A DNA stretch of 64,000 nt from a virus, in the IMG/VR virus record IMGVR_UViG_3300028840_006907, positions 32,001 to 96,000 of that record; one strand, 5' to 3'. Shown here piece after piece: positions 19,573-54,857 of the stretch. Every line of letters starts with the position of its first letter. The stretch's first letter is position 1. The notes under the pieces were generated by a model that saw only the letters and a program-made list of their open reading frames with translations, was not told where the DNA came from and searched no databases. The position numbers and the translations under genes are program-made.

Positions 19573-19915
19573 CATGAATAATGAAAAAAGTTTAGTAACT
19601 TTCCGAAGTTTTAAGAAACTTTTTCTTTGACGTTTGTTTTTTGTGGCTTTCATGAGTAATGAAAAAAGTTTAGTAACTTTCCGAAGTTTTAAAAATTTTT
19701 TCTTTCATGTAAACTTTTCCTTGTCTACATGAGTAATGAAAAAAGTTTAGTAACTTTCCGAAGTTTTAAAAATTTTTTCTTTCATGTAAACTTTTCCTTG
19801 TCTACATGAGTAATGAAATTAGTTTGGTAACTTTCCGAAGTTTTAAAAATTTTTTCTTTCATGTAAACTTTTCCTTGTCTACATGAGTAATGAAATTAGT
19901 TTGGTAACTTTCCGG
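19573..19915. repeat. tandem repeat, 77-78 bp unit, about 4.4 copies
   Basis: Unit starts (catgag/catgaa) at 19573, 19651, 19728, 19805, 19882. Confidence 0.85.
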
Positions 19916-20397: not shown

Positions 20398-20628
20398 CAG
20401 GGAACAGGGAACTGAGCACAGGGAACTGAGCACAGGGAACCGAGCACAGGGAACCGAGCACAGGGAACTGAGCACAGGGAACTGAGCACAGGGAACTGAG
20501 CACAGGGAACCGAGCACAGGGAACCGAGCACAGGGAACTGAGCACAGGGAACCGAGCACAGGGAACTGAGAACAGGGAACCGAGCACAGGGAACTGAGAA
20601 CAGGGAACTGAGAACAGGGAACCGAGCA
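20398..20628. repeat. tandem repeat, 14 bp unit (cacagggaac[t/c]gag), about 16-17 copies
   Basis: Direct reading; two unit variants differing at one T/C position. Confidence 0.85.
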
Positions 20629-20872
20629 CCTGTATCTGTGATCTCGGAAAAGTTTCGGGAAAAAAATCGGGAACGGCTCAGGGCTGAGAAATAGGTATGA
20701 ATTTTTTTGGGGTATAATTTTTGGAGTTAAACAGTTGGGGAAATTGGAGTTATCTTATGTGAGGTGATGGGATAGTTTATGGAGGGTGAAAATTTTTTGG
20801 TATAGTTTGATGGAGAAACAGGTATAATACTTATAGGACGGAAAAATTTAAGTCTAATGGTTCGAGGATCTT

Positions 20873-38923: not shown

Positions 38924-39682
38924 TTGGAGACATCTGTGAAGTATAGCGTACTTGTACCCTACTATAAACGCCTAGGGCACCTACATAATACCTTTATTTC
39001 CTTTCTACACCATTATTCAGATAGAAATGATTATGAGGTTGTCATAGCAGAAGATTATAAAAATGTCCAGAATAAAAAAGACCATGACGGTCTATCAGAA
39101 ACCATTGAGAAATTCCGTGAAAAAATACCGATAATTCATTTAACTCTTTCTATGGAAACCTGGAATCCAGCTCATGGTTTTAATGAAGCTGCAAAGTGGG
39201 CTTCTGGTGAATATTTCGTTGTAACCAATCCAGAATGTTTCCATCAAGTGAACATACTGGCTGGACTCGATAAAGAATTTGAAGAAGACCCCAATGTCTA
39301 TGTTGTATGTGGTTGTATGAATTATGTCCGTTGTAATTTTTTTATTAAAAACTTTAATGATCTAAATGGAAAATTTCAGAGATGGTACCAACACTCAATA
39401 CATAGAGCAGCCCACTATCATTTCTGTTCAGCTATTTCAAAACAGAATTGGGTAAAAATAGGAGGATTCGATGAAGACTTTGCTATGGGTATAGCCTATG
39501 ATGATGTCGATTTTAAATTAAGCATTCAAAAAGCCAAGATACCCTTTCATATCCGGGATGACCTTCTTACTATACATATTGACCATGGTTCCTTCCCATC
39601 TCCTCCAAATGCTCAGAAATTAGTTAATCGAAATAGAATCACCTATCAAAGAAAATGGGAAGGAAGTAATGAATCTTACTAG
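38924..39682 (+). CDS. putative family-2 (GT-A) glycosyltransferase
   Basis: N-terminal YSVLVPYY and GGFDEDFAMGIAYDDVDF segments resemble GT2 signatures; start codon uncertain (TTG 38924 or GTG 38936). Confidence 0.5.
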   Translation: METSVKYSVLVPYYKRLGHLHNTFISFLHHYSDRNDYEVVIAEDYKNVQNKKDHDGLSETIEKFREKIPIIHLTLSMETWNPAHGFNEAAKWASGEYFVVTNPECFHQVNILAGLDKEFEEDPNVYVVCGCMNYVRCNFFIKNFNDLNGKFQRWYQHSIHRAAHYHFCSAISKQNWVKIGGFDEDFAMGIAYDDVDFKLSIQKAKIPFHIRDDLLTIHIDHGSFPSPPNAQKLVNRNRITYQRKWEGSNESY

Positions 39683-41762
39683 TTATACCGCAGCCGACAG
39701 TATCCCGATAAAATTGATTAAGAACTTTAAATTGTTAAAGTCCATGACAACAAAAGGAGTCATCTTACCAATCCATGTCCAGTTCATACCCACAAATAGA
39801 TGTAACATGAAATGTGGATTTTGTAGCTGTGCTGAAGATGACAGAAAAACAGAAATGTCCCTTAAAAATGCTAAGAAGATCATCAGAAAATTAAAAAAAC
39901 TCGGTACTCAATCCGTAACCATCACCGGAGGAGGAGAACCACTCCTTTATCCTCATCTCCAAGAATTGTTTTCTCTGTTTAAAGATGCCGGGATAAAAAT
40001 CGGTTTTGTTACCAATGGCCTCTTATTAGGTAAATGTACCTATGAAGATGTAACCTGGTGTCGGATTTCTAATTCTGATGAAAGAAAAATGGACATGGAC
40101 TATTATCACACAATAGCTTATGCTGTTGAAGATAACCCAAACGTGGACTGGGCCTTTAGTCATGTCGTTTCTCCAAAACCAAATATCTCCGAAATAAAAC
40201 GGATCATAGAATTTGCCAATCTCCATGATTTTACCCATGTCCGATTAGTAGCTGATCTATTGAATTATAAAGAAGTAGATTTAATGCAGTTAAAAATCAC
40301 TCTTCGAGATGAAAATGTCGATGATGATAAAGTCATCTATCAAAGTAGAAATACCCCGCTCAGAGGCGGAGACTGTTATATATGCTATCTTAAACCCATG
40401 ATAGGGGCTGACTGTAATGTGTACGCTTGTTGTTTAGAGGCTAATGAACCTGTATTAATCCAGAGAAATAACGAAAGGATGTATTTATCTATAAAGGATG
40501 TTGTTCCAGGGGATTATGCTTGTGAATATGGAAAGATTTTAAATGTGTTTCATAAAGAGGGTGAAGAAGGCTTGGAAATAGTTTTGCAAAATAATAGGAC
40601 TATTTATGTTTCGAAAGATCATCTTATGCTTAAATTGACAAACCCTGAAATTAGACATAAGAGAAAGAAGTTATTATCTGACTATGAATTAGATACAATA
40701 GAATCTTCTGAATTAAGAATTGGAGATTTACTTCCGGTCAAATATAAATATGATATTAGTGAAATAAAAGAAGATACTATATCTGAAGAAGAAGCAGAAT
40801 TAATAGGATATTATGTAGCTGAAGGTTGGTCCAATGAACGAACTTGTATAGTTGATAAAAAATATCCTACTAGAACTACCACTATAGGATTTATGCTAGG
40901 GAAAGAGTCAAGAGAATATATAAGAAGATTTGAAGAAATTTGTGATATTTTGAATCTAAATTTTTCTATGACTGAACGTAGAACTGGTATGCAGTATCAG
41001 ATAGGTGCACATAAACCCTACGATGACTTAATTGTACACTGTGGTAATAAAGCAGAATTAAAAAAGATCCCTCCTTTTATTTTAAACGGCTCTGATAAAA
41101 TAAAGTGGAAATTTATTCAAGGCTATTTTGGAGGTGACGGGAATTTTCAAACTCCTTCTAAAAGCTATGATGGTTTTAAAATGAGAATGAGTACTGTCAG
41201 TAGACAACTAGCTAATGATATAATTTATCTCTTTTGTACTTTAAATATTCATGCTTCTATGAGAGTTGAGAGACGTGAAGGAAAAATGATAATAGAAGGA
41301 AGAGAGGTAAATGCTAAAGATCGGTATCATATAAATATAGGGGGAGCCTATAATTTAGAAAAAGCCCCATTCCTAAATGTAATTCAAACAAAAGAAAGAA
41401 GTCCTAAAAGAGCCCTCGGTTTTTTGAAAGATGAGGATAAGGGCATTATGTTTGTACCAGTTAAAGAGATCAGAGAGAAAAAGTTAGGAAAATTAGTAGA
41501 CATTCAAGTGGAAGGTTCAAATAAATTTATATCTTCATTTGGTATAATAGTTCATAATTGTGGCGTCCAGTATGCTCTTAAAAAGCCTTCAAAGAATCTT
41601 CCTAAGAAACTGAGCCTAGGAAGTGCTTTTGATCTTGAGAAGATAATTGAGAACAGTAATAAGCCCCTGGACGGGAGCATGTGTTATCGATGCTATTATA
41701 GTAATTATAACAAGATACTAGGATCCATCCTGGATGATACCGATCATATGGAGTTTGTATGA
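39669..41762 (+). CDS. radical SAM enzyme interrupted by an intein
   Basis: CNMKCGFC (CxxxCxxC) and TGGGEPLL in N-extein; intein blocks described separately. Confidence 0.65.
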   Translation: MNLTSYTAADSIPIKLIKNFKLLKSMTTKGVILPIHVQFIPTNRCNMKCGFCSCAEDDRKTEMSLKNAKKIIRKLKKLGTQSVTITGGGEPLLYPHLQELFSLFKDAGIKIGFVTNGLLLGKCTYEDVTWCRISNSDERKMDMDYYHTIAYAVEDNPNVDWAFSHVVSPKPNISEIKRIIEFANLHDFTHVRLVADLLNYKEVDLMQLKITLRDENVDDDKVIYQSRNTPLRGGDCYICYLKPMIGADCNVYACCLEANEPVLIQRNNERMYLSIKDVVPGDYACEYGKILNVFHKEGEEGLEIVLQNNRTIYVSKDHLMLKLTNPEIRHKRKKLLSDYELDTIESSELRIGDLLPVKYKYDISEIKEDTISEEEAELIGYYVAEGWSNERTCIVDKKYPTRTTTIGFMLGKESREYIRRFEEICDILNLNFSMTERRTGMQYQIGAHKPYDDLIVHCGNKAELKKIPPFILNGSDKIKWKFIQGYFGGDGNFQTPSKSYDGFKMRMSTVSRQLANDIIYLFCTLNIHASMRVERREGKMIIEGREVNAKDRYHINIGGAYNLEKAPFLNVIQTKERSPKRALGFLKDEDKGIMFVPVKEIREKKLGKLVDIQVEGSNKFISSFGIIVHNCGVQYALKKPSKNLPKKLSLGSAFDLEKIIENSNKPLDGSMCYRCYYSNYNKILGSILDDTDHMEFV
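40431..41558 (+). mobile_element. intein with LAGLIDADG-type homing endonuclease domain (boundaries approximate; N-terminal Cys at 40428 or 40431)
   Basis: Starts CLEANEPVLI, ends GIIVHN followed by Cys; internal IGYYVAEGW and IQGYFGGDGNF motifs. Confidence 0.6.
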
Positions 41763-44019: not shown

Positions 44020-47018
44020 AGGGAAACCCCGCTCAGATGCAGGGAAGAAGATTTCATTAAGAAGTTTTAGGAAGAGCCCCGCAGAGGAGGAACCTCGCAA
44101 GATGCGGGGAAAAGGAACTTCAGGCAATTGGCTGGGATTAGCCCCGCGAAGGTGCGGGGAAAACAGTTTCCATGAACTATATTAGGGAGAGCCCCGTTGA
44201 CACGGGGAAAAACCCGTCTTTACTTAGTGAGATCGAGGAAGGAACAGCCCCGTTGATACGGGGATAAAATAATATGACTTTTACGAATCCTCTAGGGACA
44301 GCCCTGCAGAGTGCAGGGAAAAGTAACGTCTGGGAATTGTTTAGGATTAGCCCCGCGAAGGTGCGGGGAAAGCCATAGATTTTATATTGACACAGGAAAA
44401 ACCCCGGTATAGTCCGGGGAAAAGTACGTAATCAAGATGTAAGAGGATTAGACCCGGCGAGTCCGGGAAAAGATTGGCCCAATCACTATTAAGTAGGGTG
44501 GGATAGCCCCGCAGAATGCAGGGAATAGATGCCTCACTTCATACCACTGCGTCAACCCCAGTAGAGTCCGGGGAACATGAGTGTAAATCTCTGTCGTAGG
44601 TTCAACCCCGGAGAGATCCAGGGGAAATGGGTACAACTTTGTGTACAAGGGGTAGCCCCGGAGAAATCCGAGGAAAATGAGTGTAAATCTGTGTTGAGGG
44701 TCCAGCCCCGCTCAGTGCAGGGAATATTAAGGGTCAAAACCGGTTGCCCCTGCGTCAACCCCGGTGAAGTCCGGGGAACATGAGTGTAAATCTCTGTGGT
44801 AGGATCAACCCCGCAGAGTGCAGGGAAAAATTGAACTTTTTAATCAACCCTGTAACAGCCCCGGAGTCAGTTTTGACAAGTCCGGGGGAATATCACTTCG
44901 TAAAGGAGTGGCTGTCAAGGGGGCAACCCCACAGAGATGTGGGGGAAAGTAAGCCAACGTTCCGGCATAGGCATAGCCCCTGAATTTACAGAGGGCAATT
45001 TTTCCAGTGTCCAGAAGAAGATGCAGGGAGAACCCCGGAAAGTCCAGGGGAAAATGTGTCACAGAACAACTCTTTGTGATCTCCAGGGTGAACCTCGCAG
45101 AGGTGCGGGGGAAAAGTGTCAATGAATACCAGTATGAGTCAGCCCCGGTATAGCCCGGGAATAATTACTTCTAGTCTGATAGAAGGTGCAACCCCGGGAA
45201 GTCCGGGGAAATCGGTCATAGCCATCTGGACCAGGAAGAACCCCGGTGAGATCCGGGGAAAAGGACGTTTAAATCCTGACATAGTAGCTAACTGAGGCGT
45301 AGCTCCGGTCGGGTCAGCCCTGCAGAGAGCAGGGAACAAACATAGGTAATAAATCGGCACGTGACAGCCCCGCAGAGAGGCGGGGATATATAGCGTGAGT
45401 TGCAGGGTAAGGTTCAACCCTTGTTTACCAAGGGAAAAATACCGGCAGATAAGAATTTAGGATGACCCCCGGTGAAAGTCCGGGGAAAATAATTAATACG
45501 CAAAACAGCAGGGCCAGTCCCGCGAGATGCAGGGAATGTTCAGCCAGTTTGTGTAATATTTCAGGAGACGGTGGTGCAACCCTGTCAAGGACAGGGATAT
45601 GCAACATCTGTGGCTCTACGAGGATCAGCCCCGGCAAGTCCGGGGAATTATCTTTTTATAAATGCCAAAAATAACAGTTGGGAGGGGCCAATTCCGCTGA
45701 TGCAGAAAGACATTTCATAATTAATATATTTATGGAAGAGCCCCGGTGAAATCCGGGGAAGTCAAGTAATTACAGCTCGCTGACCACTGGGGGTAGCCCC
45801 GGTAAGATCCGGGGAAAAGTTTGTTTTGAAACAAACGCTAGGAACAGCCCCGCTCAGGTGCGGGAGAATCACTGCATATTTGGTTAATGGCCCCCCTGAG
45901 TCAATCCCGCTCAGGTGCGGGGAAAATAAAGAGATAGACTAATTCAATATGCAGGAAGAACCCCGCTATATGCAGGAAAATTTAAAAAGTATGGATATCT
46001 CCTTGAGTCAACCCCGGAGATCCAGGGAAATGTAGGCACTCGTTGTCCTTTGTCGAAGTGTGAAGGGCAAACCTCGTTGATACGAGGAACAAATTTAGTT
46101 TTACTTTTGAATAAAAGTGGTCAAGCCCCGCTCAGGTGCAGGGAATAGATAAGTATACCGACGATAGCCAGGACAGCACCTGTGGTTTAGCCCTGCATGT
46201 GCAGGGAATAGTTGAGTTGAAGATTGAAGAAAAAGATAAAGTAGGGTCAGCTCTGCATGTGCAGAGAATAGCCTTTCTTCAAGCGTTGACTTGGGAGTAG
46301 GTGGGGATCAGCCCTGCACATGCAGGGAATAGAATGGTGAATCAAATTCCATTTTGTCAAAGAACGGCGACAGCCCTGCCAGTGCAGGGAATATGATTTT
46401 AACGATGGTAAAATTGGGAAGGGGTCAGCCCTGCACATGCAGGGAATAGTCGCTAGTTCAAATCCAATCGCCCCGACAGGATCAGCCCTGCATACGCAGG
46501 GAATAGAAAATACTGACGATAAACTAGCGATATGGGATCAGCCCTGCATACGCAGGGATATAGCTTGACGAATGGCCGTTTTAATGCCAGGAGTAACCCC
46601 GCTGCGAGGAATAGTCATTTCAAATATATAGGTAAAGCCCCGCGAAAGAGCGGGGGTATAATATGGCGGATTTTGTTCTATTGGTGGAATCCGGGCCATC
46701 CCCGTAGATTGACACGGGGAGATCTTTTAGAAATCTACCAAGGTGCCTTTCCGGAGTCATCCCCGTATATACGGGGGAGATTTCAATTCAGGGAATTTCG
46801 GTACAAAATTGGTCGGTTTATCCCCGTATACACGGGGAATATTGTTTCAATAGGGCATAGCAGATCTAGGATCGGGGAATCCCCGCAGGGGCGGGGAACA
46901 TCTCGGATTTATTAATCAAATTCAAACGTTTTTCGGGGAATCCCCGCAGGGGCGGGGAACATTGTTTTAAGAGGTGGTAGTTACCTCGTAGGGGAATCCC
47001 CGCAGGGGCGGGGAACAT
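44020..47018 (-). CRISPR. CRISPR array 1, roughly 50 repeat-like units, strongly heterogeneous; leader-proximal repeat ggggaatccccgcaggggcggggaacat (28 nt, 3 identical copies)
   Basis: Periodic hairpin repeats with 23-33 nt spacers; leader-proximal copies at 46874, 46935, 46991; minus-strand reading matches the I-E TTCCCCGC-N4-GCGGGGAT form. Confidence 0.8.
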
Positions 47019-47127
47019 ACTAAGTCATAATGCCATTCAAATCAAAGGTTTATAGGAACCCTAATTTTCTACCAAAGAAAAATGTACTTGTCATGTATAA
47101 ATGTCAAAGAGCGTCAGAGAGAAATCC
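47019..47127 (-). promoter_or_regulatory. CRISPR leader 1, with a ~55-bp core shared with leader 2
   Basis: accctaattttctaccaaa...tataaatgtcaaagagc shared with 54587..54683; contains TTGACA on minus strand. Confidence 0.5.
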
Positions 47128-49359
47128 CTAGTGGATATACCGAATCCATTCATATCGAATTTTCATCGTTTTATAAGGAGCTTTTTTTCTCCCTGGAAAT
47201 ATGTTTCCTTCAAAAAGGAAAAATTTTTGAACAATTTTAAATTCAGCGTTTGATGGTGTCAAGCTCTGTGGTGCATAATCCGAACGCCAGTAATTATTAC
47301 AATATATAAATTTTTCTTCTCTGTCTTTTTGTATAAGGCCCGGAAACACCACTAAAACTATCTTTTCGTTTTCAATAACAATATCCCCTTGATAAATAGC
47401 TATTTCTAAATCCAGACCATCCTGCTCTATCACACGAGCATATTTCGAGAGTTTCCCATCAATCTTTACTTTAGCTTTAGGGGGAATATCAAAAGTTATC
47501 CATTCACCTTTTATGTCCTTAATGCTTTGAATAGGTTTTTTAACTGGAATTTCTTGAAAGACATGATCTTGGTATTCTGCTTTTTTAAGGATTTCTCCAT
47601 CTTTTTCCATATTAAGCAATAAAGCCTTTTCCATGATGTCTTTAAGTTCATAGAGATCTTTTTCAGTTAAGGGCTCTTTTGTTCCGAATACGATGGAACC
47701 TACATTCTCTAATCGAGCGATTTTATCAAAACCCTGTTTCCGGACAAAGTCTATGGTAATATGTTCTATTTTTCTATTTCTTGAAAGTCTTATGATTCTT
47801 ACAAATTCAGTTTTAATTGTGTCTTTGAAATTATCAAAACTTAAATGATCTTCTACGTAGGGATGATACAAATCCGCTATAAGACTTAATAAAATTTCTA
47901 TGTCTTCAGGTTTATCCTGTTTACGGTTGTAATCATAAGCTTTAATAATTTCTTGTCTCATTTCCATTAATATATCAGGAGCCATTATTTCACTTAAACT
48001 GGTAGATCCTTTTTTGTCCCGATAAAAGGGAGCTGTTGGAAGTAAGGGAATCCTGATAGCAGCACAAAGTTCTGACATTACAATTGAGGTTAAGAACAAA
48101 TTCAATCTGTCTGAATATAATGCCCTGATATTATTACGTTCTTCTTTTTTAATAGGTGGAACATAAATGTATAACCATATTTTATCTTTTTTAGGGTAAC
48201 ATCTGAAAATACGAAACATTATTTGAGAGAAGGTCACCTGACTCTTTCCATAACTTGTATTATGTAAAACAGCAGCAGGAGGCCAATCATACCCTTCATA
48301 GAATATTCTGCAAGATACGGCGACCCAGTATTTTTTATGATTACGTCTCAATAACTCTCTATTTTTTTTCTGAGTTTCCGGTGTGACTAAATCCAGTACT
48401 TTGGACGCAGGATATATTTCGTGAATAGCTTTTAAATATTTTTTAAGGGTTCCTTCCTCTCTGAACCGGTTCCCCATGTCAGGTAATATGACAATGTGTC
48501 TTTGATCTTTGTGCTCTTTCATATATCTAATGATCTGAGTAAGGGGATCTTTCCTATAGTGAGTGAAACGGAAATTGAATTCTTTGATTTTTATGATTGA
48601 GAGATAGTCATTTAATGGGATAACCCATTTTTCAAAATGATGTTTATAAGCATTGGGGACTATTTCTCCTCTGTCTGTGCGGTGGTAAGTAGCTGTATAA
48701 AAATTTACGTTACAAGTAGGTTCATGGATGGTACATACATCTCTGACAAAATCACCCAAATGAGTGGAATCTAGTGGGGTTGATTTTGAATGATGGCATT
48801 CATCTACATGTACAGTTAAATTTCTAAGGGCTTTCTTTTTTTCATAGTTGGTTAATTTTTCCCAGGTCATGACAAACCCTCTATGGGTAGCTGTAGCAAT
48901 AGGGCCTGTTATATGTTTTTCATTGTACGGGTATTTTCGAGGATCTGCTAAAAGGAATTCTTTAAGTCCTTTAATGGATTGAGGGTTTTCACTATTGAAT
49001 TTATGTTCTTTTGGTACTTCCCACAATCTTACCATACCTTTATATTTGATTTTTATTTGTCTATTTTGGGATCTGCAGAAATTTTCACCTATTTCTATTG
49101 TTGGTGCGATAAAGATATGTTTTCGAGTATTTTTAGATATTATGATTTCATCCAGGGATATGCATACTGCTAAAAAAGTTTTGCCGACTCCCCCTGGTGC
49201 ATCAAAGATCATGTATCTGAATTTTTTCCCATATTCTTTTGCATTGCATTGCCAGCCAGAGGGTATCATGATCCCTGATTCAAGTTTTTTATTATAGGTA
49301 CCAAGGTCAACCGGTTCTATTTTAATAGATTGCTGGAAAAGCGGTAATAGCTTTTTCAT
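47128..49359 (-). CDS. cas3: SF2 DExH helicase, Cas3-like, without HD nuclease domain
   Basis: Motif I FDAPGGVGKT, motif II VDECHH, motif III TAT, motif VI-like QIMFRIFR; sits between cas6e and leader 1; GAGAGGA SD. Confidence 0.5.
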   Translation of the reverse strand: MKKLLPLFQQSIKIEPVDLGTYNKKLESGIMIPSGWQCNAKEYGKKFRYMIFDAPGGVGKTFLAVCISLDEIIISKNTRKHIFIAPTIEIGENFCRSQNRQIKIKYKGMVRLWEVPKEHKFNSENPQSIKGLKEFLLADPRKYPYNEKHITGPIATATHRGFVMTWEKLTNYEKKKALRNLTVHVDECHHSKSTPLDSTHLGDFVRDVCTIHEPTCNVNFYTATYHRTDRGEIVPNAYKHHFEKWVIPLNDYLSIIKIKEFNFRFTHYRKDPLTQIIRYMKEHKDQRHIVILPDMGNRFREEGTLKKYLKAIHEIYPASKVLDLVTPETQKKNRELLRRNHKKYWVAVSCRIFYEGYDWPPAAVLHNTSYGKSQVTFSQIMFRIFRCYPKKDKIWLYIYVPPIKKEERNNIRALYSDRLNLFLTSIVMSELCAAIRIPLLPTAPFYRDKKGSTSLSEIMAPDILMEMRQEIIKAYDYNRKQDKPEDIEILLSLIADLYHPYVEDHLSFDNFKDTIKTEFVRIIRLSRNRKIEHITIDFVRKQGFDKIARLENVGSIVFGTKEPLTEKDLYELKDIMEKALLLNMEKDGEILKKAEYQDHVFQEIPVKKPIQSIKDIKGEWITFDIPPKAKVKIDGKLSKYARVIEQDGLDLEIAIYQGDIVIENEKIVLVVFPGLIQKDREEKFIYCNNYWRSDYAPQSLTPSNAEFKIVQKFFLFEGNIFPGRKKAPYKTMKIRYEWIRYIH

Positions 49360-49444
49360 TGTCTTTTTCCTCTCAAATAAGTCCTGGAAAGCCTTTTCAG
49401 GGGCTTTCCAGGATTAATGTACTGTGTATTCTATATCAACACTT

Positions 49445-49600
49445 TCAATCGTTTTTATCAATCTCCGTGGCTAATACCGACATAAATGACATTCCGGTTC
49501 CTCCTGGTAATTCAATAATAGAAGGTCTTTTGATGTTCTCTTCTAAATTCCTAGAAGCGAGTTGCCAAGAATAGGCTTTTATAGTTTTTGTATTATTCAT
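49445..49600 (-). CDS. small ORF (51 aa) between cas6e and helicase, unknown
   Basis: ATG at 49598-49600 with TGGAGA SD; no motif. Confidence 0.25.
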   Translation of the reverse strand: MNNTKTIKAYSWQLASRNLEENIKRPSIIELPGGTGMSFMSVLATEIDKND

Positions 49601-49628
49601 TTTAAAATCTCCATATAAAAGGTTTATT

Positions 49629-50273
49629 TTAATAAGATTTATACGGTGCAATAAGCATCATACCACATCCGAAACCTTTACTCTTACCAATTCCATTATA
49701 AATAGTATTCACAAAAAGATTTTTATTGACTACCTGAAGGACTCCTCGTAAATCAATACTGAAAAAAGATACAACTTTACCATCTTTTTTTTTGAATTTA
49801 CAGAATTGAAAAGATTGAACGGAATGCTTTTGAATCATATTTTTAAAACCGTAACTTTGGCCACGTTTCTGAAGCCAATTCTTTGAGGATTCGTGAGCAA
49901 TGAAATTCCAATTATAGGGTTCATCAAGAACTTTCATTTCATTTGCCAGATCCGTCATGATTGAAACCTTTTTCCTGGTTTTCAATTTACAAACTTCGGC
50001 ATTGAGTCTGAGATCGTATTGAAGAAATATTCCAGATTTTAAATTATTTAAATCGAATACTTTTGTTTGTGTAGTGTATTCGTCCTCTGGAGGATTTGGT
50101 TTCTTTTTTGATATGATATAAAGTTCACCATTATAGAGATAATAAAGGAAATCTCTTACCCTGTTAGATCTTTGATCACCAAAAAATTCCCAGACTTTTT
50201 GATGAAGCTCATATATACCTTCGGTGGGAGAATATCTTCTCAAGCTGTCACTGTAAATTTTACTCAGAAACAT
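49629..50273 (-). CDS. cas6e: Cas6e (CasE) crRNA endoribonuclease
   Basis: MFLSKIYSD..YELHQKVWEFF..RDFLYY and C-terminal GIGKSKGFGCGMM match recollected E. coli CasE; start moved to ATG 50273. Confidence 0.75.
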   Translation of the reverse strand: MFLSKIYSDSLRRYSPTEGIYELHQKVWEFFGDQRSNRVRDFLYYLYNGELYIISKKKPNPPEDEYTTQTKVFDLNNLKSGIFLQYDLRLNAEVCKLKTRKKVSIMTDLANEMKVLDEPYNWNFIAHESSKNWLQKRGQSYGFKNMIQKHSVQSFQFCKFKKKDGKVVSFFSIDLRGVLQVVNKNLFVNTIYNGIGKSKGFGCGMMLIAPYKSY

Positions 50274-50910
50274 TCGATACCTCCTTCCATCCCATATACT
50301 CAATTCGGGATCGGTATTGTTTGGGACCGGTTACCTGATCAAAACGTTGATTGCTTTTTACTATTTTGATACTGGTATCGGTACCTTCCCAAAATATTCG
50401 GTTCTTTTCACGCCCTTTAAGACTACCATTAAGAAATTCAGGAAGAGAGTACTGTTCAAACGCCTCTGAGAGGCTCTCAGCCTTAACGATCTTAGGATCG
50501 GGTGGTATGTCATAGGAACAGCATTTCCTTCCAAGAAAGGGGGTATAGATGGGCCTATTAAGGGCTTCCATTATTTTCTTCAAAGTATAGGGACAGTTTT
50601 CATTCTCCCATATACATACGGTAAAGATGGCATTGACTAGGTAAAATCTATTCGAGACAATTCCTGGTCCGACTCTGACAATATGGAAATCTTTTAGAAT
50701 AGTACCAGGATTATCTTCCCTACAGGCAAATCCTAGTTGGGCAATCTGAGTTAATTCTTTCACCATTTCTCTTGAGACTCCAAGAGAAGCAGCGATTAAC
50801 CCGCTTACGCCAGATTTGGTAGGGTGATCATCTGTCTTTCGGGTATTACCCTGAAGGGGGAGACCCCAGGCGGATAGAGTACCCGAAAGAAGGAATAATA
50901 AATAATTCAT
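50260..50910 (-). CDS. cas5e: Cas5e (CasD)
   Basis: LSGTLSAWGLP, PTKSGVSGLIAASLG, YTPFLGRKCC match recollected E. coli CasD; AGGAG SD. Confidence 0.75.
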   Translation of the reverse strand: MNYLLFLLSGTLSAWGLPLQGNTRKTDDHPTKSGVSGLIAASLGVSREMVKELTQIAQLGFACREDNPGTILKDFHIVRVGPGIVSNRFYLVNAIFTVCIWENENCPYTLKKIMEALNRPIYTPFLGRKCCSYDIPPDPKIVKAESLSEAFEQYSLPEFLNGSLKGREKNRIFWEGTDTSIKIVKSNQRFDQVTGPKQYRSRIEYMGWKEVSNVSE

Positions 50911-50933
50911 AATATTATAACTCCTGGTAACAA

Positions 50934-52019
50934 TTAGAAATCGATGAATTTAATAAGTTCGTTAAGTGATCCTTCTTTTGTGAGTACATTCAAGATCCTA
51001 TAATCCATTTCATGGTAACATGAATCAAAACTACTTTTCATGTCAAGAAGGGCTTTGACAGCATTTTCCATAACCGCAGGACCTTTAATAGGAGTATGGA
51101 AGGCTTGACAGAGACTTCGTGGGGCAGTTGGAGCTTTTTCGATCATAACGAATGCTGGCCATGTTTGACTATCAGCACATCTGTTTTTATTAGCTGAGGG
51201 GGATGAAGTGGTTAATACTTCGACTATCTGTCGGATGGTTTTGATAGCTAGTTCTTTATTACCTTGAAGATTTTTCGTTAAGAGCTTGGAATTGATTACA
51301 AAGAAACTATAATAGACACCCTGGGTAAAATAGAAATTATCTAGGTGACCTGAACCTTTGGTTCCTTCTAATCCAAGGTTATCGGTAGCTGTAAAATAGT
51401 CGGTTTGGACAGATCCTATATCATTGACAGTAAAAGCGAAATTTGAGGACAGTGAAGCTTCAACATCATATTGGGGCAGTTTTGCAATCATGCGACCGGT
51501 AAGGGCTGTTCTGATTCCTGTATTTTCTTTTAAAAAGAAGAATTCTTGATCAGTGGGTTTATGCCCCTCAATAATTTTGTCAATCAGTTCTTCAATATGT
51601 TGTCTTTCGCTCGGTTGAATTTTAATGGTTTCGGTTTTAAGAAGATCAACCTTTTTTTTCTTTTTCTTTGTATTTTTATCATCTTCTTTTTCAGTGTGCT
51701 TTTTGATATCAACAAAAGTACCAATAAATTTAAATGCGTATTCTTCAGCTTTTTTAGGTGATATTCCACCATCAATTAATCTTTTCTCGACATATTTTCC
51801 AATAAGAGGAGTCTGAAGACCTATATCGATTTCGCACCTTTCAAATAGAGCCTTGTTTAAATCATATTTTCGATTTTGTGAAGACGAATAACCTCGGTTG
51901 GTATCATTAAGTTTCATTGTTTTAGGACGTCCGTCCTGGCCTCGGTTTATGCTAGATACAGCTACACCAGTGAGAAGGTGAATTAACCAGTAGGGGTCTT
52001 TAATAATAGTTTTAGACAT
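50934..52019 (-). CDS. cas7e: Cas7e (CasC) backbone subunit
   Basis: SINRGQDG, SSSQNRK, ALTGRM, FTATDNLGLEGTKGSGHLD match recollected E. coli CasC. Confidence 0.8.
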   Translation of the reverse strand: MSKTIIKDPYWLIHLLTGVAVSSINRGQDGRPKTMKLNDTNRGYSSSQNRKYDLNKALFERCEIDIGLQTPLIGKYVEKRLIDGGISPKKAEEYAFKFIGTFVDIKKHTEKEDDKNTKKKKKKVDLLKTETIKIQPSERQHIEELIDKIIEGHKPTDQEFFFLKENTGIRTALTGRMIAKLPQYDVEASLSSNFAFTVNDIGSVQTDYFTATDNLGLEGTKGSGHLDNFYFTQGVYYSFFVINSKLLTKNLQGNKELAIKTIRQIVEVLTTSSPSANKNRCADSQTWPAFVMIEKAPTAPRSLCQAFHTPIKGPAVMENAVKALLDMKSSFDSCYHEMDYRILNVLTKEGSLNELIKFIDF

Positions 52020-52045
52020 AAATACTCCTTGATATTTATTATTTA

Positions 52046-53989
52046 TTATATGTTATTTGAATATTCTCTTTCCCAGTAGAACTTGACATCTTTGCTCCAG
52101 TGGGCATACCCTTCCATGAAACTGATGATGTTAAATCCTTCCATTCGAGAAACAACATCAGCAAATACTTTCCAGTTTTTTTGTATATCCGTTTTATTGA
52201 AACTCATCATTTCGTCAACATGTCGGCGGTTAATTTTTTGAGAACCCATTTGGGCACCGAAAGATTGAGAAAAATCCAGATCCTTAGCTTTAAAAACAAT
52301 TAGTAGAAGAGGTACGAAAAGAGTCTTCATATCTTCTGATCTTAAAGCAGGGAAATGCATAGACATTTCTAAAATAAAATTCAAATAAAGGTCTTCATGT
52401 TTTAAGATATCGATGTCAAAACATCGGGTAAATACCCTATGTTTTTCTGTATTTCTAATAGTCCCGTACCAGGACAGGAATGGTTTGGTAAAGACCTGGT
52501 TAAAATGAGGTAGGTTTAATTTCCTGTATTCGATATGGGCGAAATTCTCATATTCTAATGGTTGTAGTTTAAGAGGTTTAACAACTTTTTTATTTAAGGT
52601 TTCGATAAATTGTTCCTTAAAATATTTCTGTAAACCTCTCTTTTCAGTACCTACATTTTTTTCAAATGTATCGAAAGCTTTAACTACCATCTTTTCCAAC
52701 CATTTTTCGATATTATGATTCTTGAGAACTTCATAGAAGTATTCTTCAGTTTCTGTCAGAAATTCGTGAAATATTAAAGGTTCGGTTTTATCAGTTCCCC
52801 AGAACTTTCTTATATAATTACAGGTATACCATCCTATAAGATATGAGTGTTCTCTGATATTTAAAGTAAACGCACTATCTTTATAGAGTTCTTCTGGGAT
52901 ATCGAATTTATTTTCCTCCCATCCAAAGAGTTTGGCTTTAGCCATATTATAACCGAAAGTCCATAATCCGAAATCAGTTATTCCAAGATATTCTCGGTTC
53001 TCCATGAAATGACTCACCACTAAAGCTGGAGTTAATTTTTTAGCTGGTAGTAGATAGGTCACAAGATCGAGATGGCTGGTAAAGTCCAGGGGTTTCCGGA
53101 AACCTGTTTCTTTGCCTTTTATAATGGGTGAAAGGATATGACGTGGTTTGACATAACAGTTACCATAATTCCTCGTTTTTATCTTTCTAACCATTAATTT
53201 GGAATGATTGCCACAGATAGTACATGATTCATCAAATTTATCAAAGATAAGATGAATACGTAGAGGCATTTCCCAGAGCGGGTAATAAGGATTCATCTCA
53301 TCCAGGGAAACAGTAGCTTTGTTTTTACTATCAACGGTATCACTAAGCCATGGGAGTGTTACACCTTTTGGATTTCCTCCGAATTCAAACATGGTCTTTT
53401 TAATAATAACATTAGACCATATTGTTTCCCATAACGTGGAACCGGTAATAATAGTGGTAAGAGAACCATTGGCACCGGCTGTTATCGAAGTACGGTATCC
53501 TTGGCCTCCCATAATGGCACTGAGTTGATTAAGATAAAGGGCAATTGTAGCACAGGATTGGCAAAAAGTATGTATCTTTGCTTTTTGGAAGAAATCTTTA
53601 CCAGCTTTAATTGTCGCTGTCCCTGGAGTATCAAAGAGGAGATTACCAACATTTACGATTCTTTCAAGGTCCTGTGGCCGTTTATCCTGTAAAAAACGAG
53701 GACCTTTGCCATCTAGTTCAAAGAGTTTTGGTTTAAGTTTTTCTAGGATGGCTTTTTGGTTTGGTGCTTTTTTGAATAGTTTTTTCCATTCTTTCTTACT
53801 TGTAGGAGCAAGATAAGTGTTGAAAAAACCTATGAGAAGCCGTACACCTACAGCATTGAAATCGGGTCTACCGAAATCGAGAGCTATTATAGGGTTATTA
53901 GGTTTTGAAGTTATTTTGTAGGGTGGAATGTTTTCCCTGGTACCGTCTTTTCGGATGACGGGGATCCAAGGGTCCTTAATTACATTCAT
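52046..53989 (-). CDS. cas8e: Cas8e (Cse1/CasA) large subunit with C-terminal extension, possibly fused Cse2/Cas11
   Basis: N-terminal MNVIKDPWIPV, CQSCATIALYLNQ, ESCTICG match recollected E. coli CasA; 647 aa vs about 500 in CasA; GGAGGT SD. Confidence 0.8.
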   Translation of the reverse strand: MNVIKDPWIPVIRKDGTRENIPPYKITSKPNNPIIALDFGRPDFNAVGVRLLIGFFNTYLAPTSKKEWKKLFKKAPNQKAILEKLKPKLFELDGKGPRFLQDKRPQDLERIVNVGNLLFDTPGTATIKAGKDFFQKAKIHTFCQSCATIALYLNQLSAIMGGQGYRTSITAGANGSLTTIITGSTLWETIWSNVIIKKTMFEFGGNPKGVTLPWLSDTVDSKNKATVSLDEMNPYYPLWEMPLRIHLIFDKFDESCTICGNHSKLMVRKIKTRNYGNCYVKPRHILSPIIKGKETGFRKPLDFTSHLDLVTYLLPAKKLTPALVVSHFMENREYLGITDFGLWTFGYNMAKAKLFGWEENKFDIPEELYKDSAFTLNIREHSYLIGWYTCNYIRKFWGTDKTEPLIFHEFLTETEEYFYEVLKNHNIEKWLEKMVVKAFDTFEKNVGTEKRGLQKYFKEQFIETLNKKVVKPLKLQPLEYENFAHIEYRKLNLPHFNQVFTKPFLSWYGTIRNTEKHRVFTRCFDIDILKHEDLYLNFILEMSMHFPALRSEDMKTLFVPLLLIVFKAKDLDFSQSFGAQMGSQKINRRHVDEMMSFNKTDIQKNWKVFADVVSRMEGFNIISFMEGYAHWSKDVKFYWEREYSNNI

Positions 53990-54210
53990 ATGATACCTCC
54001 GCGATTTATGAATGGTTGCGGAAATTTAATTATTTATGTTTTTACTCAACTTATTTATGTTTTTTTGCTTAGCTGAGACTTTGATTTAATTTTTTAATTA
54101 ACCCATTAGTTATAAAGTTAATTATAATCTAAAATAAATATAAATGCAACATTTTTTCAAGTACTTTATATATAACTATAATATTTCGAATTGTTTATAG
54201 CATGAGAAAT

Positions 54211-54240
54211 ATTTCCTCCGTTTACACGGAGGAAATTTAG
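54211..54240 (-). terminator. hairpin CCTCCG-loop-CGGAGG at distal end of array 2
   Basis: Inverted repeat; followed on minus strand by A/T-rich sequence rather than a clean U-tract. Confidence 0.25.
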
Positions 54241-54264
54241 GATTATATCAGAGATGGGCTCTGA

Positions 54265-54586
54265 GACAGCCCCGGTAAAGTCCAGGGAAATAAAAATTAG
54301 TGATAATTCGGGAATCAGCAGGAGGAGAGCATCAGCCCTGCGTATGCGGGGAATAGTGTTATCGTCTTACAGGATGTAAAGCAGAGACAGCCCCGCGTAT
54401 GCGGGGAATAGAAATTAATACATCTCATAAAATCTAGCATCAGCCCCGCGTATGCGGGGAATAGTTATTTATCTATACTTCCTACAACTCCCATAACGCA
54501 TCAGCCCCGCGTATGCGGGGAATAGCTCGTTGGTTTTCCCATTCCACAAAAGTTCAACGCATCAGCCCCGCGTATGCGGGGAATAG
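54265..54586 (-). CRISPR. CRISPR array 2: 6 repeats (distal one degenerate), repeat gcatcagccccgcgtatgcggggaatag, spacers 25-33 nt
   Basis: Repeat copies at about 54265, 54329, 54385, 54437, 54498, 54559; 61-bp period for the three leader-proximal units. Confidence 0.85.
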
Positions 54587-54683
54587 ACTATAATATAATT
54601 AGTTGAAAATCAGAGAGTTACAAAGACCCTAATTTTCTACCAAAAAAAGTACTTGCCGTTTATAAATGTCAAAGAGCTTATCT
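54587..54683 (-). promoter_or_regulatory. CRISPR leader 2 with the conserved core
   Basis: Shares ~55-bp core with 47019..47127. Confidence 0.5.
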
Positions 54684-54857
54684 TTAAAGGTATAAATCCT
54701 CTTCATCCTCAGGAGCCAGATCTATATCTGAAAGAGTTCTGCTCCCACCGAAATCTAATTCTAATACTTCATCTTCTCCACCTGTATTAAAAAAATCATC
54801 TTCTTCACTTGGCTCTTTAAGAATCTCATCAGCATCGTATTCTTCGATTGGTAACAT
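54684..54857 (-). CDS. small highly acidic protein (57 aa), below ORF-track cutoff
   Basis: Hand-translated MLPIEEYDADEILKEPSEEDDFFNTGGEDEVLELDFGGSRTLSDIDLAPEDEEDLYL; immediately upstream of leader 2. Confidence 0.3.
   Translation of the reverse strand: MLPIEEYDADEILKEPSEEDDFFNTGGEDEVLELDFGGSRTLSDIDLAPEDEEDLYL

What the first reader, a model, noticed from the sequence alone, without database searches (positions are those of the whole stretch)
47019..54683. Both arrays carry the same ~55-bp leader core containing a TTGACA hexamer
accctaattttctaccaaa(g/a)aaaa(a)(tg)tacttg(t/c)c(a/g)t(g/t)tataaatgtcaaagagc is conserved at 47040-47100 and 54610-54670, on the side where repeats are best conserved. 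That fixes the transcription direction (minus strand) and suggests a shared promoter or integration-host-factor-like site.
Basis: seen in the sequence. Interest (0 to 1): 0.45.

Follow-up and report, generated by a model that had tools for sequence, protein, structure and literature searches.

The report
Shared leader of two CRISPR arrays
The two CRISPR arrays do share a conserved leader that sets their reading direction; it is ordinary in kind, but it keeps the layout of a classic type I-E leader in a rare giant-mobile-element system that has no spacer-integration genes of its own.

Summary
A 52-55 nt core (47058-47112 and 54626-54677, minus strand) is 92% identical between the two leaders, while the rest of each leader and the first repeats have diverged.

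The reading direction (minus strand) is supported. The repeats match the E. coli I-E repeat only in that orientation, the cas genes run the same way, and repeats are identical only next to the leaders.

Eight related loci show that the core has two parts.
- **Box 1.** GYTCTTTGAMAT, which holds the TTGACA/TTGAAA hexamer, marks the 5' edge of every array. It occurs 10 times in 161 kb against 0.17 expected. It often follows terminator-like hairpins. It has no canonical -10, so it is probably the array's transcription signal, but this is unproven.
- **GGTAG block.** TTGGTAGAAA sits at a fixed -55..-50 from the leader-repeat junction. E. coli has its Cas1-Cas2 anchoring site (GGTGGG) within 1 nt of that position. 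Both window leaders also have an IHF-consensus match at -34..-22 and end in TAGT, where the E. coli leader ends in TAGA.

No cas1, cas2 or cas3 lies in the 64 kb. The locus is Cas8e-Cas7e-Cas5e-Cas6e plus a rare SF2 helicase on a 388 kb contig. The leader most likely drives crRNA expression and lets a host I-E integrase add spacers in trans.

The parts
47019..47127 (-). Leader A: the whole intergenic stretch between the helicase stop codon (47128-47130) and repeat 1 of array A
47101..47112 (-). Box 1 of leader A, GCTCTTTGACAT, containing the TTGACA hexamer (47102-47107); candidate -35 or transcription signal
47081..47086 (-). TACATT, the only -10-like element at a fixed distance from box 1 (15-nt spacer); aligns with TACATT at -66..-61 of the E. 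coli leader
   Evidence: inference
47058..47076 (-). GGTAG block of leader A, TTTGGTAGAAAATTAGGGT; GGTAGA lies at -55..-50 from the leader-repeat junction; candidate Cas1-Cas2 anchoring site or operator
47040..47052 (+). AATCAAAGGTTTA, an exact match to the IHF consensus WATCARNNNNTTR at -34..-22; also a degenerate second copy of box 1 (CCTTTGATTT on the minus strand)
47019..47023 (-). Leader end TTAGT directly before repeat 1 (the E. coli leader ends TTAGA)
44027..47018 (-). Array A: about 55 I-E-like repeats. The first three are identical (ATGTTCCCCGCCCCTGCGGGGATTCCCC); the rest are heterogeneous with compensatory stem changes
47128..49359 (-). 743-aa SF2 helicase (Walker A GxGK, DECHH) with no HD nuclease; replaces Cas3 in this family
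49629..50303 (-). cas6e
50260..50910 (-). cas5e
50934..52019 (-). cas7e
52046..53989 (-). cas8e (647 aa, with a long C-terminal extension)
54121..54149 (-). Promoter-like TTGCAT-17-TATAAT upstream of cas8e; the region is partly conserved with L009
54270..54586 (-). Array B: 6 repeats (CTATTCCCCGCATACGCGGGGCTGATGCG), followed by a repeat-like or terminator-like hairpin at 54214-54233
54587..54683 (-). Leader B: intergenic stretch between a 57-aa ORF (54684-54857) and repeat 1 of array B
54666..54677 (-). Box 1 of leader B, GCTCTTTGACAT (TTGACA at 54667-54672)
54626..54644 (-). GGTAG block of leader B, identical 19-mer; GGTAGA at -55..-50
54608..54620 (+). AATCAGAGAGTTA, an IHF-consensus match at -34..-22 of leader B

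Best explanation
The conserved sequence is the leader of two co-oriented CRISPR arrays, both read on the minus strand. They belong to a type I-E-derived Cascade locus with a helicase and no adaptation genes, on a very large mobile element.

The 55-nt core holds two functionally separate modules.

(1) Box 1 (GYTCTTTGAMAT, containing TTGACA/TTGAAA) with a weak -10-like [T/A/C]AC[A/T]TT 15-16 nt downstream. I infer that this is where transcription of the pre-crRNA starts or is controlled.

(2) A module anchored to the leader-repeat junction: TTGGTAGAAA at -55..-50, an IHF-consensus or box-1-like site at -34..-22, and TAGT at -4..-1. This has the same order and nearly the same spacing as the E. 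coli I-E leader. I infer that it positions a type I-E Cas1-Cas2 integrase supplied in trans, presumably by the host, so that spacers enter at repeat 1.

Shown here: conservation, positions, strand, and absence of cas1/cas2 in 64 kb. Inferred: promoter activity, protein binding, and adaptation in trans.
For: Leader identity and direction: with the cas genes.

Box 1: GYTCTTTGAMAT occurs once per array, always at the 5' edge on the sense strand. That is 10 occurrences in 160.8 kb (the window plus eight loci: seven related Cascade loci, L005-L009, L251 and L252, and L010, which has no Cascade genes and no copy) against 0.17 expected. It persists at helicase identities down to 33%. In L006-L009 a stable hairpin with a T-rich tail ends 1-7 nt before it, so those arrays need their own start signal. 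The distance from box 1 to ACATT is constant at 26-28 nt, while the distance from box 1 to GGTAG varies from 31 to 39 nt.

Junction-anchored module: GGTRRR lies at -55..-50 in winA, winB, L006 and L009. In L007 and L008 it lies at -57..-52, and their TAG is shifted by the same 2 nt. E. coli has GGTGGG at -54..-49 and TAGA at -4..-1. In E. coli, GTGG at -50..-53 is the integrase anchoring site and -9..-35 is the IHF site (PMC5224486). The E. coli CRISPR-1 transcription start lies about 50 nt upstream of repeat 1, driven by a weak sigma-70 promoter (PMC10011333).

IHF consensus: both window leaders match at -34..-22, and all three differences between the two copies fall on degenerate positions of the consensus.

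This module is missing from L005, L251 and L252, which keep box 1. That fits an essential expression signal plus a dispensable adaptation signal.

Evidence that adaptation has happened: the leader-proximal repeats are identical and are separated by about 25-32-nt spacers. An L006 spacer matches the L005 helicase gene at 30/31 positions.

Precedent: type IV-A3 arrays on plasmids, which also lack adaptation genes, acquire spacers using host I-E Cas1-Cas2 because their leader and repeats are similar (bioRxiv 10.1101/2023.06.23.546257).
Against: I found no canonical -10 at 16-18 nt from TTGAMA in any of the nine leaders, and the scanner does not call the site. A 15-nt spacer is suboptimal for sigma-70.

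No cas1 or cas2 was found in the window or in any relative within 10 kb. No IHF or HU gene was seen.

Strong Shine-Dalgarno use and 35% GC leave the host unknown, and I do not know whether it has IHF.

The IHF consensus occurs in the window at its chance frequency (15 found, 14.3 expected) and is degenerate in L006-L009.

GTAG differs from the essential E. coli GTGG, and the register is offset by 1 nt.

Repeats flanking the 'recent' L006 spacer differ at 6 or more positions. In L252 a block of six identical canonical repeats is not next to the leader. Both hint at recombination rather than leader-directed integration.

The arrays are identical in the two samples available.

An ACATTT-GGTA-AAATGT dyad sits on the cas8e promoter of L009, which favours an operator reading of the GGTAG block.
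Confidence: 0.6

Rival explanations
1. The core is purely regulatory. Box 1 and the ACATT-GGTAG-AAA block are binding sites for a transcription factor or an element-specific sigma factor or RNA polymerase that co-regulates the arrays and the cas operon. The resemblance to the E. coli integration signals is coincidental or vestigial.
For: In L009 a dyad, CAACATTT-N7-AAATGTTG containing GGTA, lies 2 nt upstream of a canonical TATAAT in front of cas8e. It matches the L007 leader block AACATTTGGTAGAAAAATGTT at about 20 positions. L007 and L008 encode multi-winged-helix proteins directly upstream of cas8e. The spacer between box 1 and ACATT is itself semi-conserved (ATGA.AAG), which is unusual for a plain promoter. 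No cas1 or cas2 is nearby. Box 1 has a degenerate second copy at -33..-22.
Against: The dyad is clear only in L007 and L009 and is absent upstream of cas8e in the window, L007 and L008. An operator does not explain why GGTAG keeps an invariant 51-nt distance to the junction TAG while its distance to box 1 varies by 8 nt. It also does not explain why the block can be lost while box 1 stays.
Confidence: 0.25
2. The arrays are transcribed mainly from elsewhere, and the leader core acts only on DNA or not at all. Candidate sources are read-through from the cas operon, the strong promoter-like site inside the 3' end of the helicase gene (47262-47234, TTGACA-17-TAAAAT), or, for array B, the upstream genes.
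For: The 11/12 promoter-like site is the best match in 13 kb. No strong terminator separates the helicase gene from leader A. Everything from leader B through array A is co-directional.
Against: The internal site is not conserved in L005 or L006. L006-L009 have terminator-like hairpins just before box 1. Leader B follows an unrelated small ORF, yet carries the same box 1.
Confidence: 0.1
3. The similarity is only a leftover of a duplication of leader plus array and has no present function.
For: Array B exists only in the window lineage, and its repeats resemble the middle block of array A. A duplication did therefore occur.
Against: Conservation is concentrated in two blocks (12/12 and 19/19) while the rest of the leader is about 59% identical. 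The same blocks are kept in lineages whose helicases are only 33-59% identical.
Confidence: 0.05

Closest known systems
Escherichia coli K-12 type I-E CRISPR-1 leader (weak sigma-70 promoter, integrase anchoring site, IHF site, leader-repeat junction)
   Same: The order and spacing of elements relative to repeat 1 agree. ACATT lies at about -65, TTGGT(G/A)G at about -55..-49, a bend-site window lies at -9..-35, and the leader ends TTAG(A/T). The repeats have the same 29-nt layout with a stem-loop and an 8-nt ...CCN handle.
   Different: No cas1-cas2 follows or precedes the leader here. The essential GTGG is GTAG or GTAA and is offset by 1 nt. An invariant upstream 12-mer (box 1) has no E. coli counterpart. 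IHF dependence is unknown. Three relatives have lost the whole junction-anchored module.
Type IV-A3 plasmid CRISPR arrays that borrow host I-E Cas1-Cas2 (Benz et al., bioRxiv 10.1101/2023.06.23.546257)
   Same: Both are on mobile elements, with no adaptation genes and no nuclease, a helicase partner, and an I-E-like leader and repeats. Spacers are aimed at competing related elements.
   Different: The effector proteins here are true I-E families (Cse1, Cas7e, Cas5e, Cas6e), not Csf proteins. The helicase is not DinG. Acquisition in trans has not been shown here.
Cas3-less I-E variants I-E2 (Cas5-HNH) and I-E3 (PD-(D/E)xK-Cas11) in the 2025 classification (PMC12669027; PMC10910872)
   Same: A I-E Cascade backbone that lacks the Cas3 helicase-nuclease.
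   Different: No HNH or PD-(D/E)xK domain was detected in the cas proteins. Instead there is a separate 743-aa SF2 helicase with only 8 database relatives. No such variant is mentioned in the passages I read.
CRISPR-Cas loci of huge phages that lack adaptation and interference nucleases (Al-Shayeb et al. 2020; from my own knowledge, not checked here)
   Same: A very large element (388-470 kb contig), mostly ORFan genes with a few phage-family hits, and compact cas loci without cas1/cas2.
   Different: I did not confirm that this element is a phage, as no structural genes lie in the window. The specific I-E-plus-helicase composition was not found in the papers searched.

Membership tests
Type I-E CRISPR leader (E. 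coli paradigm) | Non-coding, AT-rich stretch directly 5' of repeat 1 on the crRNA sense strand | tested here: met
   109-nt and 97-nt intergenic leaders lie 5' of the first repeats on the minus strand. Repeat orientation was fixed by comparison with the E. coli repeat.
Type I-E CRISPR leader (E. coli paradigm) | Conserved leader-repeat junction contacted by Cas1-Cas2 (-1..-4) | tested here: met
   TAG(T/A) lies at -4..-1 in winA, winB, L006, L009 and E. coli, and at -6..-3 in L007 and L008. Binding itself is not testable here.
Type I-E CRISPR leader (E. coli paradigm) | Upstream integrase anchoring site (GTGG at -50..-53, within a conserved -44..-59 region) | tested here: inconclusive
   GGTAGA, GGTAAA or GGTAGG lies at -55..-50, invariant in distance to the junction in six leaders. 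E. coli has GGTGGG at -54..-49. The core is GTAG, not GTGG, and the block is absent in L005, L251 and L252.
Type I-E CRISPR leader (E. coli paradigm) | IHF binding site at -9..-35 | tested here: inconclusive
   Both window leaders match WATCARNNNNTTR exactly at -34..-22. The motif occurs at chance frequency in the window and is degenerate in relatives. No IHF or HU gene was found.
Type I-E CRISPR leader (E. coli paradigm) | Adjacent cas1-cas2 adaptation module | tested here: not met
   No Cas1 or Cas2 Pfam/NCBIfam hits were found among the predicted ORFs of at least 55-60 aa scanned across the 64 kb, nor among the precomputed Pfam hits of the relatives. tblastn with E. coli Cas1e and Cas2e was negative.
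Sigma-70/sigma-A promoter | -35 hexamer close to TTGACA | tested here: met
   TTGACA (6/6) in six leaders and TTGAAA (5/6) in three.
Sigma-70/sigma-A promoter | -10 hexamer close to TATAAT, 16-18 nt downstream | tested here: not met
   The scanner does not call the site. The best fixed element is [T/A/C]AC[A/T]TT at 14-16 nt, and there is none in L005 or L252.
Sigma-70/sigma-A promoter | Mapped transcription start | not testable with these tools
   No transcript data were available.
Type I-E CRISPR-Cas effector module | Cas8e, Cas7e, Cas5e and Cas6e | tested here: met
   PF09481, PF09344, PF09704 and PF08798; TIGR02547, TIGR01869 (below its cut-off), TIGR01868 and TIGR01907.
Type I-E CRISPR-Cas effector module | Cas11 (Cse2) small subunit | tested here: inconclusive
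   No Cse2 family hit and no tblastn hit. Cas8e is 145 aa longer than in E. coli, and relatives L007-L009 carry an unassigned ORF of about 200 aa.
Type I-E CRISPR-Cas effector module | Cas3 HD nuclease-helicase | tested here: not met
   The helicase hits only ResIII and DEAD models and has no sequence relative in the PDB. Its predicted fold matches generic SF2 helicases, and no Cas3 entry is among the 50 best structural matches listed.
Type IV CRISPR-Cas | Csf1/Csf2/Csf3 effector proteins and DinG (IV-A) | tested here: not met
   The proteins hit I-E families, not Csf families. The helicase is not DinG-like. Only the overall logic is shared: borne on a mobile element, no nuclease, no adaptation genes, and a helicase.

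The most novel reading that the evidence does not exclude
The leader belongs to an unclassified I-E-derived lineage on giant mobile elements. Its components would be Cascade plus a novel non-nuclease SF2 helicase, with no Cas1, Cas2 or Cas3. It keeps I-E integration signals so that it can use host Cas1-Cas2. Its arrays are unlike normal CRISPRs: almost every repeat is different, stems are kept by compensatory changes, and spacer lengths fall in three classes about 6 nt apart (about 20, 26 and 32 nt). That would load Cascades of different sizes. The arrays target rival relatives, including their helicase gene and perhaps their array promoter.
Probability: 0.3. Interest if true: 0.75.

Novelty: new variant of a known kind. 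Interest (0 to 1): 0.5.

Why it matters
A shared leader between two arrays of one locus is routine in itself. Here it gives three useful things.

First, it fixes the polarity of two unusual arrays.

Second, it separates an always-retained expression signal (box 1) from a dispensable, junction-anchored module that copies the E. coli I-E integration layout. That makes a specific idea testable: that CRISPR systems on giant elements without adaptation genes update their arrays with a host I-E integrase.

Third, box 1 is a compact sequence tag for finding more members of a very rare Cascade-plus-helicase family (8 helicase relatives among 5.8 billion proteins).

Tried and rejected
- **Bacteroidota-type promoter.** TTTG-N18-TAnnTTT fits several leaders, but 62 of 109 ORFs have a Shine-Dalgarno motif, which argues against such a host.
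- **TAGAAA or GAAAAT as the -10.** The distance to any -35-like hexamer is not conserved (my reading).
- **An RNA structure in the leader.** The consensus fold is -3 kcal/mol with an unfavourable covariation term and only one pair kept through changes on both sides. There are no Rfam hits in 43.5-55.2 kb.
- **Collection scans for the leader pattern.** A leader profile rejected all but one weak, unrelated hit.
- **Viral contigs.** No relatives of Cas7e or the helicase, and no match to the two-block pattern.
- **Annotated phage and plasmid records.** No DNA match to the locus, and no spacer match to phages.
- **Array polymorphism between samples.** L003 and L004 are 100% identical to the window.
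- **Self-targeting.** No spacer matches the masked window.
- **The 11/12 promoter-like site inside the helicase gene.** It is not conserved in relatives.
- **Overall pairwise identity of leaders against coding DNA.** This was uninformative in AT-rich sequence, as were exact words of 11 nt or more. I used positional recurrence of box 1 instead.
- **Pul et al. 2010**, the primary mapping of the E. coli leader promoter, is not held in the library.

Full report
**1. What is at the coordinates**

The finding spans a complete CRISPR-Cas locus on the minus strand. In order it contains:
- leader B (54587-54683);
- array B (6 repeats, 54270-54586);
- cas8e (52046-53989), cas7e (50934-52019), cas5e (50260-50910) and cas6e (49629-50303);
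- a 743-aa helicase gene (47128-49359);
- leader A (47019-47127);
- array A (about 55 repeats, 44027-47018).

The four cas genes hit the type I-E families in Pfam and NCBIfam. The helicase hits only the generic ResIII and DEAD models.

The window is identical to part of a 388,651-nt JGI contig, and the same protein also occurs on a 469,617-nt contig. The window has 35% GC, strong Shine-Dalgarno use, mostly ORFan genes and a few phage-family hits. It is probably a huge phage or another giant mobile element.

**2. The observation**

On the minus strand the two leaders align from GCTCTTTGACAT to TTTGGTAGAAAATTAGGGT. This covers 47112->47058 and 54677->54626, with 48 identities, 4 mismatches and one 3-nt gap.

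The blocks are unique to the leaders. Upstream of the core the sequences are unrelated: one is the helicase 3' end and the other is a small ORF. Downstream of the core, identity falls to about 59%, and the first repeats differ.

Repeats are identical only next to the leaders.

**3. Direction**

On the minus strand the repeats have the layout of the E. coli I-E repeat: 5 nt, a stem-loop, then an 8-nt handle ending in CCN. Repeat 4 of array A carries the E. coli handle ATAAACCG unchanged. Cas6e is present and all the cas genes are co-oriented.

In relatives the same leader sequence always lies between an upstream gene and repeat 1. I consider minus-strand transcription well supported by sequence, though no transcript data exist.

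**4. Relatives**

The helicase has only 8 relatives among 5.8 billion clustered proteins. The Cas7e has only 5 hits at E of 1e-20 or better. I recovered seven related loci:
- L005 (helicase 59% identical);
- L006 (55%);
- L007, L008 and L009 (33-37%);
- L251 (Cas7e 65% identical, no helicase);
- L252 (Cas7e 57% identical).

None shows cas1, cas2 or a Cas3 HD domain within 10 kb.

In the window, Pfam scans of the predicted ORFs of at least 55-60 aa, the precomputed Pfam hits for the central 22 kb, and tblastn with E. coli Cas1e and Cas2e found none either.

**5. Anatomy of the leader from comparison**

*Box 1.* GYTCTTTGAMAT occurs exactly once per array, always at the 5' edge and on the sense strand. 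That is 10 occurrences in 160.8 kb against 0.17 expected. L010, a helicase homologue with no Cascade genes nearby, has none. The embedded hexamer is TTGACA in six leaders and TTGAAA in three.

In L006-L009 a stable hairpin with a T-rich tail ends 1-7 nt before box 1. The cas operon is therefore probably terminated there, and those arrays need their own start signal.

*-10-like element.* A short element, [T/A/C]AC[A/T]TT, follows box 1 at a constant 26-28 nt start-to-start, which is a 14-16-nt spacer after TTGAMA. I found no canonical TATAAT-like hexamer at 16-18 nt in any leader, and the consensus scanner does not call the site.

*GGTAG block.* TTGGTAG(A/G)AA sits at -55..-50 from the leader-repeat junction in winA, winB, L006 and L009. 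In L007 and L008 it sits at -57..-52, and their junction TAG is shifted by the same 2 nt. The distance from GGTAG to TAG is therefore invariant, while the distance from box 1 to GGTAG varies from 31 to 39 nt.

The leader thus consists of a floating promoter-like module and a junction-anchored module. L005, L251 and L252 keep box 1 but lack the junction-anchored module. In them the first, already degenerate, repeat starts 25-45 nt after box 1.

**6. Comparison with the E. coli I-E leader**

I fetched the E. coli leader and indexed it from the junction. My indexing reproduces the published GTGG at -50..-53.

| Element | E. coli | This family |
|---|---|---|
| ACATT | -65..-61 | -67..-60 |
| GGTGGG / GGTAGA | -54..-49 | -55..-50 |
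| TAG(A/T) | -4..-1 | -4..-1 |

In E. coli, GTGG is the integrase anchoring site and the surrounding -44..-59 region is conserved among I-E leaders. The -9..-35 region binds IHF (PMC5224486). The CRISPR-1 transcription start is about 50 nt upstream of repeat 1, from a weak sigma-70 promoter (PMC10011333). That start would fit TACATT as the -10, which is my inference.

Both window leaders match the IHF consensus WATCARNNNNTTR exactly at -34..-22 (47040-47052 and 54608-54620). The three differences between the two copies all fall on degenerate positions. However, the motif occurs in the window at chance frequency (15 against 14.3), and it is degenerate in the relatives.

The same site is also a weak second copy of box 1 (CTTTGA), about 54-62 nt downstream of the first.

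**7. Mechanism I think most likely**

Box 1, with or without the ACATT element, starts or controls pre-crRNA transcription. The junction-anchored module positions a type I-E Cas1-Cas2 supplied in trans. The closest precedent is the plasmid type IV-A3 system, which also lacks adaptation genes and uses host Cas1/2e because its leader and repeats resemble I-E ones.

Two observations suggest that spacers have been gained:
- the leader-proximal repeats are identical and are separated by about 25-32-nt spacers in both window arrays;
- a 33-nt spacer in L006 (5332-5364) matches the helicase gene of L005 at 30/31 positions, with AAA on the 5' side.

The L006 match also shows that these arrays target close relatives.

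Against a simple leader-directed model:
- the repeats flanking that L006 spacer differ at 6 or more positions;
- the block of six identical canonical repeats in L252 is preceded by three degenerate units;
- no array differences exist between the two samples that carry the window sequence.

**8. Rivals**

An operator reading of the GGTAG block is the main rival. L009 has CAACATTT-N7-AAATGTTG, containing GGTA, 2 nt upstream of a TATAAT in front of cas8e. This is very similar to the L007 leader block. L007 and L008 encode winged-helix proteins next to cas8e.

This reading does not explain the invariant distance to the junction, and the dyad is missing at the other cas8e promoters.

Read-through, or the 11/12 promoter-like site inside the helicase gene (47262-47234), may add to array A transcription. 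That site is not conserved. A functionless duplication relic is excluded by the cross-lineage conservation.

**9. The surrounding system**

The helicase has an intact Walker A motif and a DECHH motif. It has no sequence relative in the PDB. Its predicted structure (pLDDT 67) resembles generic SF2 helicases such as Ski2/Brr2, Snf2, RecQ and Hel308. No Cas3 or DinG entry is among the 50 best structural matches listed.

The passages I read in the 2025 CRISPR-Cas classification and in the rare-variant survey describe Cas3-less I-E2 (Cas5-HNH), I-E3 and I-E5. They do not describe this composition. In its logic the locus works like a type IV system, but its proteins are I-E.

**10. Verdict**

The direction is supported. 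The promoter reading is plausible but lacks a -10. The IHF reading is misplaced, because the core instead overlaps the position of the I-E integrase anchoring site.

The leader is a known kind of element in an unusual, rare system. Interest is moderate (0.5). The arrays themselves (see the notes) are the more surprising feature.

Noticed in passing
window 44027-47018 (array A); also L005 3165-3720, L006 5005-7596, L251 7255-8625: Beyond the first three copies, the repeats fall into many different sequence variants. The hairpin is kept by compensatory changes: CCCCGC/GCGGGG, CCCCGT/ACGGGG, CCCTGC/GCAGGG, CCCCGG/CCGGGG, CCCTTG/CAAGGG, CCCCACA/TGTGGGG and CCCTGTC/GACAGGG. The 8-nt handle varies too. 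This is a trait of the whole family and is unlike normal, homogeneous CRISPR arrays.
   Followed up: partly
window 44027-47018: Distances between successive stems are trimodal: 31-34 nt (n=19, mode 32), 36-41 nt (n=14) and 43-47 nt (n=11). This corresponds to spacers of about 19-20, 26-27 and 32 nt, in steps of about 6 nt, the repeat length of the Cascade backbone. The short class dominates the distal half. L006 shows a similar but blurrier spread.
   Followed up: partly
L006 5332-5364 versus L005 1662-1693: A full-length spacer in the L006 array matches the helicase gene of the related element L005 at 30/31 positions (E 2e-8). The 5' flank in the target is AAA. The family's arrays therefore target close relatives, yet the two repeats flanking this spacer differ at 6 or more positions.
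   Followed up: partly
window 46333-46365 (spacer 12 of array A): The spacer begins GTTCTTTGACA, which is the box 1 variant of the L005 and L251 leaders (11 nt). It could be a spacer taken from a rival's array leader, or chance; my rough estimate is p of 0.002-0.005.
   Followed up: partly
L001 6001-6027 / L002 462-488 (IMG/VR UViG 3300017987_000013 and 3300017989_002520): A phage of about 55% GC, from samples of the same numeric series as the window's contig, carries an exact 23-nt copy of the leader B core (TTTTTTTGGTAGAAAATTAGGGT) and 27/28 of leader A. It lies in a long intergenic region. There is no other similarity to the window. Unexplained.
   Followed up: partly
L009 4753-4771; L007 12700-12720: The dyad CAACATTT-N7-AAATGTTG, containing GGTA, lies 2 nt before a TATAAT upstream of cas8e in L009. 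It closely resembles the leader block of L007. It may be a shared operator.
   Followed up: partly
L252 2365-2700: Six identical canonical I-E repeats (CTATTTCCCGCGTGCGCGGGGATAAACCT) with 32-nt spacers sit in the middle of an otherwise degenerate array, three units away from box 1. This suggests that array segments move by recombination or by ectopic integration.
   Followed up: no
window 47128-49359; L251: The SF2 helicase that stands in for Cas3 has only 8 relatives among 5.8 billion proteins and no assignable subfamily. The closest Cascade relative, L251, lacks it altogether. L007-L009 have extra unassigned ORFs of about 200 aa before it and about 110 aa after it.
   Followed up: partly
window 44550-44830: Spacers 37, 39 and 41 of array A are near-identical (..ACAGAGATTTACACTC). 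Part of the distal array therefore grew by tandem duplication of two-unit blocks (family D8, 74).
   Followed up: no
window 53994-54010; L009 4871-4887: An exact 17-mer, CATAAATCGCGGAGGTA, covering the ribosome-binding site of cas8e is shared with L009, although the helicases of the two loci are only about 33% identical. Further conserved A-rich repeats (AAAAACAYAAA) lie upstream.
   Followed up: no
window 47234-47262 (minus strand): TTGACA-17-TAAAAT (11/12) lies inside the 3' end of the helicase gene, 120-150 nt upstream of box 1. It is not conserved in L005 or L006.
   Followed up: yes
window 19573-19914 and 20404-20629: A 77-nt tandem repeat (4.4 copies, 93% matches) and a 14-nt tandem repeat (16 copies, ACAGGGAACTGAGC) lie in a region with few ORFs.
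   Followed up: no
window 39669-41762: A 697-aa radical SAM protein whose precomputed Pfam hits include intein and LAGLIDADG domains. The L005 orthologue is 322 aa with no such hits.
   Followed up: no
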